Virus record (IMG/VR): IMGVR_UViG_3300021254_000029
Span: 32,460 to 96,459 of that record
Direction: 5' to 3' (one strand)
Length of the DNA stretch: 64,000 nucleotides
DNA from: a virus
Lineage: Duplodnaviria; Caudoviricetes
The translations under genes and the position numbers were made by a program. Below, piece after piece: positions 10,954 through 11,396 of this stretch (positions are counted from its first letter, which is position 1; each line of letters starts with the position of its first letter). Under the pieces are notes generated by a model. It worked only from the letters and a program-made list of their open reading frames with translations, did no database searches and had not been told where the DNA came from.

Positions 10954-11131
10954 AATATTCGTTTCTTAAAAATCGACACAGGCCCGACGGCAGCGGATGA
11001 TGTCTGCAACAAGGACAAGACCCAGAGCAAGAACCGTTGCAGCACTCGGCAAGAGCAAGAGCATTACCGGGAGGCGGCAGCCTCCCTACCTGAGTGTCGC
11101 ACTACAACGTCATCGGGTGAAAATTGCCATT

Positions 11132-11225
11132 CTGCGTGTTACCATTACACTACCTCACCCATAAGTCTTTCCCGAAGGATAGGGGTGAGGACAGGACTCG
11201 AACCTGCAATACAGCCACCACAAGG
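11132..11225 (-). tRNA. Circularly permuted tRNA-His(GTG): 3' half 11225-11183, 5' half 11160-11132
   Basis: Joined halves give G GGTGAGG TA GTGT AATGGTA ACAC G CAG|CC TTGTGGT GGCTG TATT GCAGG TTCGAGT CCTGT CCTCACC C, with G-1:C73; the linker contains TCC-TTCG-GGA. Confidence 0.8.
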
Positions 11226-11238
11226 AAGGCGATTTTTG

Positions 11239-11295
11239 TACATATCCACTCTGTCACTCGCGTAAGTTGGTACGCAAGGTGGGAATCGAACCCAC
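11239..11295 (-). ncRNA. Permuted tRNA-like module with encoded CCA and no clear anticodon arm
   Basis: GTGGG TTCGATT CCCAC CTTGCGT ACCA actt ACGCGAG TG ACA GAGTGGATA TGT: T arm, 7-bp acceptor closed by an ACCAACTT loop, then D arm. Confidence 0.72.
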
Positions 11296-11384
11296 GTATT
11301 ATTGTTGATAGAATATCACCCTCTGTCATCAGTGCGCCGCAGTTTCGCAGTAGATACCTTCAGTCTGCGGCTACCTGTGTCGAT

Positions 11385-11396
11385 ATGTCAAAGAAC
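11385..11396 (-). promoter_or_regulatory. boxA-like antitermination motif
   Basis: GTTCTTTGACAT immediately 5' of the structured RNA; resembles rrn boxA (TGCTCTTTAACA). Confidence 0.5.

What the first reader, a model, noticed from the sequence alone, without database searches (positions are those of the whole stretch)
10972..11396. ~410-nt closed RNA carrying two tandem circularly permuted tRNA modules
Seen (minus strand): a boxA-like motif, an 11-bp perfect stem joining the two ends, nested helices CGCACT/AGTGCG and GGGTGA/TCACCC, and inside them two modules in the order T arm, acceptor stem closed by a loop, D arm. Module 1 has ACCA in the closing loop; module 2 is His-like. Known: this topology occurs in YrlA Y RNAs (Ro60 partners), two-piece tmRNAs and algal/archaeal permuted tRNAs, each with a single module. 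No Ro60/TROVE gene is visible in this window. Inference: an undescribed phage RNA scaffold displaying tRNA elbows and acceptor ends, e.g. a decoy for tRNA-targeting defences, a ribosome/synthetase-binding RNA, or a precursor cut by RNase P/Z into a multi-piece aminoacylated RNA.
Basis: partly seen in the sequence, partly recalled or inferred. Interest (0 to 1): 0.9.

Follow-up and report, generated by a model that had tools for sequence, protein, structure and literature searches.

The report
Phage scaffold RNA displaying tRNA mimics
This rumen Bacteroidales phage makes a roughly 417-base folded RNA carrying two back-to-front tRNA look-alikes; it belongs to a large RNA family, absent from Rfam and the papers searched, that always follows one unstudied helical protein gene, so the two probably form a new viral RNA-protein particle.

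Summary
On the minus strand, 11384..10968 is one closed RNA. A 12-bp terminal helix is followed by a U-run. Two modules run T arm, loop-closed acceptor stem, D arm.

It is not a one-off. The element lies directly 3' of a conserved unannotated helical protein (ORF 11405-12562) in 15 of 15 close loci. Its 3' core is found in 122 of 160 loci that encode a homologue (25-71% identity), always 142-370 nt after the stop codon. Hosts are Bacteroidales.

The conserved scaffold covaries strongly: 34 of 44 pairs are compensatory in distant members, and no shuffle of 500 reached the observed values. It comprises:
- the terminal helix;
- a GACUGA/GAAAC hairpin;
- a long inner helix;
- two single-stranded arrays of hexamer repeats (YUCUUG).

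The tRNA-like modules are lineage-specific cargo: 0, 1 or 2 per RNA, with swapped order in some relatives. One type keeps a full anticodon arm whose anticodon varies.

RNA-library contigs from three studies cover the element and no flanking gene of this phage.

Rfam 15 holds no matching family. YrlA scores 14.5-37.9 bits against a gathering score of 69. No Ro60 gene is present, and RtcB is adjacent in one relative only.

The most likely reading is an RNA-protein particle that displays tRNA mimics. Its function is inferred, not shown. This scan noted the same pair earlier on other DNA.

The parts
10968..11384 (-). The whole structured RNA, about 417 nt, from the first base of the terminal helix to the end of the U-run
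   Evidence: Sequence. Homologous element in 15 close loci. RNA-library contigs cover 10983-11367 and no flanking ORF of this phage.
11385..11396 (-). Conserved TCTTTGAC(A/T)TAT box just 5' of the terminal helix; a candidate Bacteroidetes -7-type promoter element that overlaps the end of the upstream gene region
   Evidence: Conserved in all 15 close relatives. The promoter reading rests on my memory of the TAnnTTTG consensus and was not tested.
11373..11384 (-). P1a, 5' strand (AUCGACACAGGU)
   Evidence: Pairs with 10972-10983. Compensatory changes in L095 and L008 (helix 1). In distant members 7 of 8 pairs covary.
11336..11371 (-). P2 hairpin: stem GCCGCAG/CUGCGGC, conserved internal loop GACUGA / GAAAC, and a small cap hairpin
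   Evidence: 100% paired in the close family. The stem covaries across distant loci, for example ACCCAG/CUGGGU, ACAAAA/UUUUGU and AUGCG/CGCAU.
11328..11332 (-). P1b, 5' strand (CUGAU); pairs with 10984-10988 (GUCGG)
   Evidence: RNAalifold. Two of 5 pairs are compensatory, for example CCGGC/GCCGG and CCGAU/AUCGG. It corresponds to the 18-bp long helix of distant members.
11316..11321 (-). P3, 5' strand (GGGUGA); pairs with 11115-11120 (UCACCC) and closes the tRNA-module domain
   Evidence: Counterparts in relatives were read by eye from the alignments: GUGGUUU/AAACCAC (L008), GGCUU/AAGCC (L002), UUGUUU/AAACAA (L001).
11215..11295 (-). tRNA-like module 1 (class-II-like): T arm 11295-11279, acceptor closed by ACCAACUU 11278-11257, D arm 11256-11237, extra hairpin UCGCC..GGUGG 11232-11215
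   Evidence: YrlA model 14.5 bits. Resembles the first module of L103.
11132..11214 (-). tRNA-like module 2: anticodon-stem equivalent CUGU (11214-11211) / GCAG (11135-11132), T arm 11207-11191, 8-bp acceptor closed by a 22-nt loop 11190-11153, D arm 11152-11136
   Evidence: YrlA model 26.7 bits, model positions 23-89..
11115..11120 (-). P3, 3' strand (UCACCC)
11099..11109 (-). P4, 5' strand (CGUUGUAGUGC); pairs with 11035-11045 (GUGCUGCAACG)
   Evidence: RNAalifold. Six of 11 pairs compensatory and 97% paired (helix 6).
11069..11086 (-). P5 hairpin GGGAGGC-UGCC-GCCUCCC
   Evidence: Three of 7 pairs compensatory (helix 7).
11049..11062 (-). Hexamer-repeat block 1 (GC UCUUGC UCUUGC), enclosed by P4
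   Evidence: Conserved in 122 of 160 homologous loci.
11035..11045 (-). P4, 3' strand (GUGCUGCAACG)
11007..11034 (-). Hexamer-repeat block 2 (GUUCUUG CUCUGG GUCUUG UCCUUG UUG), predicted single-stranded between P4 and P1b
   Evidence: Strict (NNNTTG)x3 arrays occur in 22 of 39 elements, against 0.011 per 450 nt elsewhere in the same loci.
10968..10988 (-). P1b 3' strand (10984-10988), P1a 3' strand (10972-10983) and U-run (10968-10971)
   Evidence: A U-run follows the terminal helix in close and distant relatives. No local hairpin terminator is present.
11405..12562 (-). Upstream gene for a 385-aa helical protein of unknown function; the invariant genomic partner of the RNA
   Evidence: Directly 5' of the RNA in 15 of 15 close loci and in distant loci. 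More than 1176 clusters at 50% identity. No Pfam or PHROG family. AlphaFold2 pLDDT 84 with no solved-fold match.

Best explanation
What it is. The stretch encodes a discrete, stable non-coding RNA of about 417 nt. It belongs to a large family of Bacteroidales-phage RNAs that I found in neither Rfam 15 nor the papers searched. The family's fixed parts are:
- a helix joining the 5' and 3' ends, followed by a U-run;
- a hairpin with a GACUGA/GAAAC internal loop;
- one or more inner closing helices;
- two arrays of pyrimidine-rich hexamer repeats, usually each behind a GGAGG-like motif (GGGAGG before block 1 here, none before block 2), that are predicted to stay single-stranded.

The RNA gene always lies directly after the gene of one helical protein of unknown function.

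How it most likely works (inferred). The RNA and this protein form a ribonucleoprotein, with copies of the protein, or another single-strand binder, lining the hexamer arrays. In this lineage the domain closed by GGGUGA/UCACCC has taken up two circularly permuted tRNA bodies.
- One type joins the scaffold through its anticodon-stem equivalent, as in YrlA.
- The other is a class-II-like body joined through its variable-arm equivalent. In relatives it keeps a canonical 7-nt anticodon loop with a variable anticodon.

The modules would present tRNA elbows, closed acceptor ends and, in relatives, anticodon loops. This lets the particle engage factors that recognise tRNA, most plausibly as a decoy or sponge for host nucleases or enzymes that target tRNA during infection.

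Shown here: the sequence features, covariation, synteny and presence in RNA libraries.

Inferred: binding of the protein, the role of the repeats, and the decoy function.

Confidence. The figure given (0.4) is for the whole statement, mechanism included. That it is a conserved structured RNA linked to this gene I hold at about 0.9.
For: - Homologues and synteny: the element follows the protein gene in 15 of 15 close loci. The 3' core is found in 122 of 160 loci with a homologous protein, always 142-370 nt after the stop on the same strand. The 5' core is found in a further clade.
- Structure, close family: 95.7% of cells paired, 16 pairs compensatory, covariation score 0.362 against 0.209 for shuffles (0 of 500 reached it), slid controls at most 44.5% paired.
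- Structure, distant members: 34 of 44 pairs compensatory, 92.9% paired against 69.4%, 0 of 500 on all five measures.
- Hexamer arrays are enriched about 50-fold over the rest of the same loci.
- The hexamer unit differs between clades: NNNUUG in most, CUAUCA in L175/L203, CUUUGS in L195.
- Modules: closed acceptor stems covary. Module order is swapped in L002-type relatives. Type-B anticodon loops keep U33 and R37 while the anticodon reads UUG, UUU, UUC, GCG, GCU, AUG or AUU.
- The YrlA model aligns to the modules at 14.5-37.9 bits.
- Expression: RNA-library contigs from three studies cover 10983-11367 only, at 99-100% identity.
- Context: relatives place the pair inside tRNA/tmRNA islands or directly before tRNA genes. 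RtcB sits directly downstream in one relative. This phage carries tRNA-Lys(UUU) and two tRNA-Gln genes.
Against: - No binding, processing or phenotype data exist.
- The protein has no recognisable RNA-binding domain and no informative fold match.
- Gene adjacency could reflect shared transcription rather than physical partnership.
- Most family members lack tRNA-like modules, so tRNA mimicry cannot be the family's core function.
- In this window module 1 carries an 8-nt loop, not a canonical anticodon loop, and module 2 has none. The anticodon-decoy argument therefore rests on relatives.
- The list of displayed anticodons is short and was read by eye.
- RNA evidence comes from assembled contigs, which cannot give ends, strand or level.
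- The repeats do not recur at the protein gene's own start region. That removes one line of support seen by other agents in DUF7873 systems.
Confidence: 0.4

Rival explanations
1. It is a Y RNA in the strict sense. The RNA binds the host's Ro60 (Rsr) and uses its tRNA-like modules to tether an exoribonuclease such as PNPase, as YrlA and Yrn1 do. The phage supplies only the RNA.
For: The module topology is that of YrlA, and the YrlA model aligns at sub-threshold scores. Phage YrlA RNAs are known (PMC4201824). RtcB, which accompanies rsr-yrlA operons, lies next to the RNA in relative L003.
Against: No TROVE gene is in this record or in five related phage records, three of them at least 95% complete. 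Only model positions 23-89 align, not the Ro-binding terminal stem. Scores are far below the gathering score of 69. The invariant neighbour is a different protein. Most family members have no tRNA-like domain.
Confidence: 0.1
2. The hexamer arrays sponge an abundant host single-strand RNA-binding protein (a cold-shock or RRM-1 type, the main RNA chaperones of Bacteroidota). The upstream protein is merely co-expressed.
For: The repeats are pyrimidine-rich, predicted single-stranded and arrayed. GUCUUUG units in L189/L195/L196 resemble the high-affinity heptamer of Bacillus CspB; this is recalled from memory and not checked. Bacteroides lacks Hfq and CsrA and relies on RRM-1 proteins (abstract of PMC13370968, listed).
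Against: The repeat unit changes between phage clades (CUAUCA against NNNUUG). That fits a co-evolving phage partner better than a conserved host protein. Strict gene-RNA linkage holds over protein identities of 25-71%. The published RbpB motifs read here do not match.
Confidence: 0.15
3. It is a precursor. RNase P and 3' processing cut in the acceptor loops to give a multi-piece RNA, or, after ligation by RtcB, functional tRNAs made from permuted genes.
For: ACCA is encoded in the module 1 loop. RNA contigs of two studies stop at 11186, one of them running into adapter sequence, and no contig covers 11148-11185, the module 2 acceptor loop. RtcB is adjacent in L003.
Against: CCA is absent from the loops of nearly all relatives, and some loops are only 3-5 nt. 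Type-A modules have no anticodon loop. A relative's 318-nt RNA contig runs unbroken across both modules. RtcB is absent from this record and from two near-complete relatives. Contig ends are weak evidence for RNA ends.
Confidence: 0.1
4. It acts in cis, as a structured 3' UTR, terminator or processing platform of the upstream gene, or as a leader or antitermination element for downstream tRNA genes. The boxA-like GCUCUU repeats would recruit Nus factors.
For: It sits between genes on the same strand. In the human-gut clade the terminal helix overlaps the last codons of the protein gene. It is often followed at once by tRNA genes. The repeats resemble boxA; this is from memory.
Against: RNA contigs cover the element and no neighbouring gene of this phage. 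The element ends in a helix plus U-run. Downstream genes differ in every clade. A scaffold of 240-480 nt with 44 or more covarying pairs is far more than a terminator needs.
Confidence: 0.1
5. The 3' domain encodes a small hydrophobic peptide (sense frame MLLLLPSAATVLALGLVLVADIIRCRRACVDF). This would be either a type I toxin-like mRNA locked by 5'-3' pairing or a tmRNA-like tag template.
For: Substitutions in the close family look period-3, and the frame is open in most close relatives. Pairing of the two ends recalls hok mRNA; permuted tRNA order recalls two-piece tmRNA.
Against: There is no start codon in the L001 group or L008, and frame-breaking indels occur in L008 and L095. Frame and spacing are not kept in distant members, and L133 has in-frame stops. 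The periodicity is 6, not 3. ARAGORN finds no tmRNA. The permuted-tmRNA model scores 11.3 bits against 47, on the T arm only. Neither acceptor stem has a G3-U70 pair.
Confidence: 0.03

Closest known systems
YrlA / bacterial and phage Y RNAs with Ro60 (Rfam RF02553; Chen et al. 2014, PMC4201824)
   Same: Both have a tRNA-like domain in the order T arm, loop-closed acceptor stem, D arm. It joins the rest of the RNA through the anticodon-stem equivalent. The 5' and 3' ends pair. Several copies can occur. There is a link with RNA-repair genes (RtcB in one relative).
   Different: No Ro60 gene is present. The Ro-binding stem is not matched, and scores are 14.5-37.9 bits against 69. The RNA is about four times larger, with its own conserved scaffold and hexamer arrays. 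Two modules sit in one molecule, and one type has an anticodon arm and is joined through the variable arm. The obligate neighbour is a different, unannotated protein. Most family members have no tRNA-like domain.
GOLLD and ROOL large ornate phage RNAs (from memory: Weinberg et al. 2009 and 2017)
   Same: These are large, intricately folded phage or prophage RNAs of unknown function. They are frequently next to tRNA genes and sometimes have a tRNA embedded in a variable region.
   Different: No match to either Rfam family at gathering score. The size is smaller, at 240-480 nt. The linkage to a protein gene is strict. Hexamer-repeat arrays are present.
Two-piece (circularly permuted) tmRNA
   Same: The gene order is permuted (T arm, acceptor 3' strand, CCA, loop, acceptor 5' strand) in module 1. 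The ends of the RNA pair. An open frame lies downstream.
   Different: No conserved reading frame, resume codon or stop is present. There is no alanine identity pair. ARAGORN and the Rfam models do not detect it. The CCA is not conserved.
The 'DUF7873 protein plus tRNA-mimic RNA with hexamer repeats' class, noted by other agents of this scan (unpublished, unchecked notes)
   Same: The grammar is the same: a protein gene of unknown function is followed by a closed RNA of 300-500 nt with one or two permuted tRNA modules and six-base repeats, without Ro60.
   Different: None of 75 members of this protein family matches DUF7873 or any other Pfam family convincingly at E up to 1. I saw no repeats at this gene's ribosome-binding region. 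Whether the two protein families are remote homologues was not tested.
CsrB/RsmZ-type sponge RNAs and TRAP-binding leaders
   Same: Short repeated motifs in single-stranded segments are displayed between helices, as expected for multivalent protein binding.
   Different: The motif and spacing differ (a six-base YUCUUG period). No CsrA or TRAP homologue is implicated. This is an analogy only.

Membership tests
YrlA (Rfam RF02553) | Score at or above the curated gathering threshold (69 bits) | tested here: not met
   26.7 and 14.5 bits in the window. The best in relatives is 37.9 bits.
YrlA (Rfam RF02553) | tRNA-like domain: T arm, acceptor-like stem closed by a loop, D arm, closed by an anticodon-stem equivalent | tested here: met
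   Both modules, with covarying closed acceptors in relatives.
YrlA (Rfam RF02553) | Ro60-binding terminal stem (model positions 1-22 and 90-114) | tested here: not met
   The best hit aligns positions 23-89 only. The full-length alignment scores 14.5 bits with unpaired columns.
YrlA (Rfam RF02553) | A Ro60/TROVE gene nearby (within 4 kb in Chen et al. 2014) | tested here: not met
   No PF05731 match in the 96-kb record or in five related phage records. The control genomes did match.
tmRNA, standard or two-piece | Detected by ARAGORN or by Rfam RF00023/RF04321; conserved tag reading frame; G3-U70 alanine identity pair | tested here: not met
   ARAGORN finds none. RF04321 scores 11.3 bits against 47. 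The frame is not conserved. The acceptor pairs are read directly.
Functional tRNA (canonical or permuted gene) | Complete cloverleaf with anticodon loop and a free or processable CCA end | tested here: not met
   ARAGORN and Rfam tRNA find nothing here. Module 2 has no anticodon loop and module 1 has an 8-nt loop. CCA is not conserved. Whether the loops are cut in vivo was not testable.
GOLLD / ROOL / other large Rfam RNAs | Match to the family covariance model at gathering score | tested here: not met
   No match in the window or in 20 related loci.
DUF7873-linked tRNA-mimic RNA (class internal to this scan) | The neighbouring protein matches Pfam DUF7873 | tested here: not met
   hmmscan of 75 family members at E up to 1 gave no DUF7873 hit. 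The library reaches at least PF25764, beyond DUF7840 = PF25222. Remote homology was not tested.
DUF7873-linked tRNA-mimic RNA (class internal to this scan) | A closed RNA with permuted tRNA module(s) and six-base repeats directly after the protein gene | tested here: met
Type I toxin mRNA | A conserved small hydrophobic ORF with a start codon | tested here: not met

The most novel reading that the evidence does not exclude
The helical protein and this RNA build a new kind of viral ribonucleoprotein. A protein-coated RNA scaffold serves as a modular display platform into which phages plug different tRNA bodies, including whole class-II tRNA mimics with changeable anticodon loops. The cargo would intercept whichever tRNA-cleaving or tRNA-sensing defence the local hosts carry. 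That would make it a programmable RNA-based anti-defence device, comparable in concept to CRISPR-repeat decoys.
Probability: 0.2. Interest if true: 0.9.

Novelty: new variant of a known kind. Interest (0 to 1): 0.75.

Why it matters
If the reading holds, gut and rumen Bacteroidales phages widely carry an RNA-protein particle described in neither Rfam 15 nor the papers I could search.

- The protein family has more than 1100 clusters at 50% identity.
- The RNA core shows dozens of covarying base pairs.
- The cargo of tRNA mimics is exchangeable.

That would extend tRNA mimicry by Y-like RNAs beyond Ro60. It would add a new large structured RNA class to phage biology. It would also give a direct handle on how phages of major gut bacteria deal with attacks on tRNA.

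The system can be tested. Related elements sit in contigs assigned to cultivated Bacteroidales, for example Muribaculaceae bacterium MF13079 and Prevotella sp. 885. The RNA is also visible in existing metatranscriptomes.

Tried and rejected
- Small hydrophobic ORF, type I toxin or tmRNA tag in the 3' domain: rejected. There is no conserved start, there are frame-breaking indels, and distant members show stops and shifted spacing. The period is 6.
- Rfam at gathering score and at E-value thresholds on the window and 24 related loci: only tRNA, tmRNA and Pistol elsewhere, plus sub-threshold YrlA.
- GenBank phage collection: no DNA match. The protein matches only two unannotated records.
- TROVE and RtcB in this record: absent. 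RtcB is present only in G003.
- Protein function: no result from Pfam, PHROGs, Foldseek against PDB, VIA-align or the ESM Atlas. Weak helical-hairpin similarities (Seryl_tRNA_N, the ValRS coiled coil) are generic.
- Hexamer repeats at the protein gene's own start, a lead from other agents' notes: not found.
- ARAGORN's 'tRNA-Gln' in L131 and the Rfam tRNA hits of 30-32 bits in L001/L003/L194: these are chimeras of the D arm of one module with the T arm of the next, because their acceptor strands do not pair.
- RbpB binding motifs from the literature: no match.
- The Pfam accession of DUF7873 was not found in three look-ups, so no direct search with that model was made.
- Burroughs and Aravind 2016 (PMC5062991) is not held and could not be read.
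- The lag-6 autocorrelation window statistic alone barely exceeds shuffles. The regex and HMM evidence is what carries the repeat claim.
- RNA-library contigs leave 11148-11185 and the flanking ORFs uncovered. A gap in contigs proves nothing by itself.
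Full report
**1. The observation**

I read the minus strand of 10800-11600.

- The helix ATCGACACAGG (11384-11374) / CCTGTGTCGAT (10982-10972) is an exact 11 bp, and 12 bp with a closing U-G pair. TTTTT follows it.
- Module 1 has the T arm GTGGG-TTCGATT-CCCAC, then the acceptor CTTGCGT/ACGCGAG closed by ACCAACTT, then a D arm with GG.
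- Module 2 has the T arm GCAGG-TTCGAGT-CCTGT, then an 8-bp acceptor CCTCACCC/GGGTGAGG closed by a 22-nt loop containing a UUCG mini-hairpin, then the D arm GTAGTGTAATGGTAACAC.

ARAGORN and Rfam at gathering score see only the three ordinary tRNA genes of the window. With permissive thresholds the only relevant hits are YrlA, at 26.7 bits on module 2 (model positions 23-89) and 14.5 bits on module 1, and the T arm of the permuted-tmRNA model at 11.3 bits. The whole stretch folds better than shuffles, with a z-score of -3.8.

The window lies in a 96-kb IMG/VR virus record estimated at 80% complete. That record has no TROVE gene and no RtcB gene. It holds a single copy of the element.

**2. The element is a member of a family tied to one protein gene**

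The ORF just upstream (11405-12562, minus strand, 385 aa) has no Pfam or PHROG family.

- Searching viral contigs with it gave three loci, and each carries a homologous intergenic element right after the gene.
- A 17-base motif of the 5' core, followed by nhmmer, raised this to 15 distinct elements.
- All 15 lie directly after a homologue of the protein, at 57-71% identity.
- The genes downstream differ. They are a 105-aa ORF here, RtcB in L003 (Pfam E = 7e-62), a radical-SAM protein in L001, and a tRNA gene in L008 and L095.

The protein family is large. The word-index search found 578 proteins, and the exhaustive profile search found 1176 clusters at 50% identity. Most members are about 293 aa. 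The 385-aa form has two insertions.

I fetched 80 viral loci and 80 genome-contig loci that encode homologues down to 25% identity. The genome bins are almost all Bacteroidales: Prevotella, Muribaculaceae, Bacteroidaceae and Porphyromonadaceae.

An iterated nhmmer search seeded with the 3' core of the window's family finds that core in 122 of these 160 loci. Every hit lies on the gene's strand, 142-370 nt after its stop codon. A clade that this search misses (L175/L203/L194) is found through the 5' core instead, at E values of 1e-8 to 1e-12.

**3. Architecture**

For the close family, RNAalifold on the core columns gave the following layout:

- P1a, the terminal helix.
- The hairpin P2, with stem GCCGCAG/CUGCGGC, an invariant GACUGA ... 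GAAAC internal loop and a small cap hairpin.
- P1b (CUGAU/GUCGG).
- P3 (GGGUGA/UCACCC), which closes the domain holding the two tRNA-like modules.
- P4 (CGUUGUAGUGC/GUGCUGCAACG), which encloses the hairpin P5 (GGGAGGC/GCCUCCC) and a first block of two hexamer repeats (UCUUGC UCUUGC).
- A second block of four to five repeats (GUUCUUG CUCUGG GUCUUG UCCUUG), left unpaired between P4 and P1b.

On a ten-sequence alignment these helices are 95.7% paired. Sixteen of 49 pairs show compensatory change. The covariation score is 0.362 against 0.209 for shuffled partners, and no shuffle of 500 reached it. Structures slid by one to three columns are at most 44.5% paired.

It competes with P4, which is kept.

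In 13 distant members without modules (protein about 30% identical), RNAalifold independently predicts three helices:

- the terminal helix of 8 bp;
- P2 with its cap;
- an 18-bp inner helix in the place of P1b.

Thirty-four of 44 pairs have compensatory changes. Cells are 92.9% paired against 69.4% in shuffles. None of 500 shuffles reaches the observed value on any of the five measures, and slid controls stay below 49%.

This is strong comparative evidence for a structured RNA. One caveat applies: the second structure was derived from the alignment on which it was then counted.

**4. The repeats**

Strict (NNNTTG)x3 or longer arrays occur in 22 of 39 representative elements. Elsewhere in the same loci, on both strands, the rate is 0.011 per 450 nt.

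Relaxed forms occur in nearly all elements, usually as GGAGG-like motif, two repeats, spacer helix, GGAGG-like motif, then GGUUCUUG and three to five more repeats.

The unit is CUAUCA in the L175/L203 clade and CUUUGS in L195.

At first the repeats look like a small hydrophobic ORF with third-position variation. That frame does not survive comparison:

- it lacks a start codon in several close relatives;
- it is broken by 1- and 2-nt indels;
- it is not kept in distant members.

I therefore read the repeats as an RNA-level feature. Their likeliest role is as a multivalent binding platform for a single-strand binder.

**5. The tRNA-like modules are cargo**

All 15 close relatives have two modules.

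- Type A has the D arm UAGUUCAGYUGGUUAGAAC. It is closed by a 5-bp helix formed by its two ends, in the position of the anticodon stem. This is exactly the YrlA plan.
- Type B has a class-II, Leu-like D arm (UGGCGGAAUUGGUAGACGC), followed by a 5-bp stem with a 7-nt loop. A short helix in the position of the variable arm joins it to the scaffold. It is therefore a whole tRNA body permuted in the variable arm.

The type-B loops keep U33 and a purine at 37. The anticodon position reads UUG, UUU, UUC, GCG, GCU, AUG or AUU in different relatives.

Module order is A-B in some clades and B-A in others. The window has a B-like module with an 8-nt loop and a third, His-like type.

Acceptor stems are closed by loops of 3-22 nt and covary. 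CCA occurs in the loop only here and in L095.

The L175/L203/L194 clade has one type-A module. L200 has an ordinary tRNA-Thr(GGU) gene inside the element. Most other clades have no module.

The apparent tRNA calls that bridge two modules are chimeras, because their acceptor strands do not pair. The YrlA paper warns of the reverse artefact, in which tandem tRNA genes can look like YrlA. That artefact is excluded here by the complementary, covarying acceptor strands within each module.

**6. Expression**

One DNA run holds the whole stretch and may be its source.

I laid four metatranscriptome runs from three studies on 10600-12000. Their contigs cover only the element:

| Run | Span covered | Note |
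|---|---|---|
| X15 | 11186-11367 | exact match |
| X16 | 11186-11350 | exact match; same sample as the DNA; runs into adapter at 11186 |
| X19 | 10983-11147 | two mismatches |
| X18 | contigs of relatives | one 318-nt contig joins the 3' and 5' domains across a different 151-nt module region |

Apart from a 31-nt piece of a relative's contig at 11754-11784, nothing covers the flanking ORFs.

Contigs cannot give level, strand or ends. Still, cover limited to the element argues for a stable RNA rather than contaminating DNA.

Two independent contigs stop at 11186, and no contig covers 11148-11185, the module 2 acceptor loop. This is a weak hint of cutting there. The relative's unbroken contig argues that cutting is not obligatory.

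A conserved TCTTTGA box about 7 nt before the terminal helix may be a Bacteroidetes-type promoter. The consensus is from my memory and was not tested. In the human-gut clade the terminal helix overlaps the last codons of the protein gene. There the RNA must be made from a transcript that starts within or before that gene.

**7. The protein**

The AlphaFold2 model from a 75-sequence alignment has pLDDT 84 and pTM 0.71. It shows two repeats of helix, beta-hairpin, long helix, followed by a long coiled coil.

- Foldseek against the PDB found nothing.
- VIA-align found only generic helical hairpins, with Z at most 7.5.
- BFVD gave one uncharacterised phage protein, at E = 3e-13.
- The ESM Atlas gave only unnamed phage and Bacteroidota clusters.
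- None of 75 members matches any Pfam family convincingly, DUF7873 included.

Its role as the RNA's partner rests on synteny alone.

**8. Comparison with what is known**

The modules work like the tRNA-like domain of YrlA. The element nevertheless fails the membership tests for YrlA on score, on the Ro-binding stem and on a neighbouring Ro60 gene. It is also neither a tmRNA nor a tRNA, and it matches no other Rfam family.

Large phage RNAs next to tRNA genes (GOLLD, ROOL) are the nearest analogues in style. They are unrelated by model search.

Literature searches for phage tRNA mimics, Y RNAs, permuted tRNAs and structured phage RNAs found no description of this family.

Notes of this scan show that another agent found the same Bacteroidales-phage protein-RNA pair on other DNA (e1-5768294). 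They also show that a similar grammar next to DUF7873 proteins has been noted many times. These are unchecked notes. My tests agree with the first. For the second, they show no sequence-level membership of this protein in DUF7873 and no repeats at its start site.

**9. Verdict**

The best-supported account is a discrete, expressed scaffold RNA, absent from Rfam 15 and from the papers searched, that pairs with the upstream helical protein. In this lineage it displays two permuted tRNA mimics.

That it is a conserved structured RNA linked to this gene I hold at about 0.9. The ribonucleoprotein-with-decoy mechanism I hold at about 0.3-0.4.

Noticed in passing
window 13026-13099 (-) and 12672-12992 (-): tRNA-Lys(UUU) is followed by a 106-aa HNH/endonuclease VII-like ORF (PHROG 1035, E = 7e-9), about 1.6 kb upstream of the RNA on the same strand. 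The phage's only other tRNAs are Gln(UUG) and Gln(CUG), at 52904-53055. These are isoacceptors typically hit by anticodon nucleases.
   Followed up: partly
window 12563-12660 (-) and 10954-10967 (-); L004:2950-2975: The motif ACGAAT(T/A)(G/A)AACGAAT recurs just upstream of the start codons of ORF 11405-12562 and ORF 10636-10953, and in the related locus L004. It is probably a phage promoter or leader motif. A sigma-70-like TTGAAA-16-TATAAT (11 of 12) overlaps it at 12595-12568.
   Followed up: no
L136:1126-2058, L137:1116-2088: In the human-gut clade the protein-RNA pair sits just after two tRNA genes and a full-length tmRNA gene (RF00023, 62 bits). It is followed by a further tRNA-like gene, so the whole region is an RNA-gene island.
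   Followed up: no
L173:612-674: A Pistol ribozyme (RF02679, 59 bits) lies about 1.8 kb upstream of the protein gene in one related phage contig.
   Followed up: no
L003:4642-5865; L001:4659-5525 and 828-1514: Genes next to the RNA in relatives: RtcB directly downstream (L003); a radical-SAM protein directly downstream (L001); and an Rv2179c-like 3'-5' exoribonuclease plus a DUF4406 protein upstream (L001).
   Followed up: partly
window 8473-9687 (-) and 4742-8242 (-): Downstream on the same strand lie an SPFH/Band-7-like protein (PHROG 11908, E = 6e-37) and an 1166-aa protein with an N-terminal DnaG-type zinc ribbon (a primase). The RNA therefore sits in the early/replication region.
   Followed up: no
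L136:3390-3400, L148:3386-3396: In the human-gut clade the 5' strand of the RNA's terminal helix is formed by the last codons and the stop of the protein gene (GGC AAG TAA). It covaries with the 3' strand (GGCAAGU/ACUUGUC, GGUAGGU/ACUUACC).
   Followed up: partly
L200:3404-3476: One distant member carries an ordinary, non-permuted tRNA-Thr(GGU) gene (70 bits) inside the element, between the GACUGA-type hairpin and the repeat arrays. This shows that the same site accepts normal tRNAs as well.
   Followed up: no
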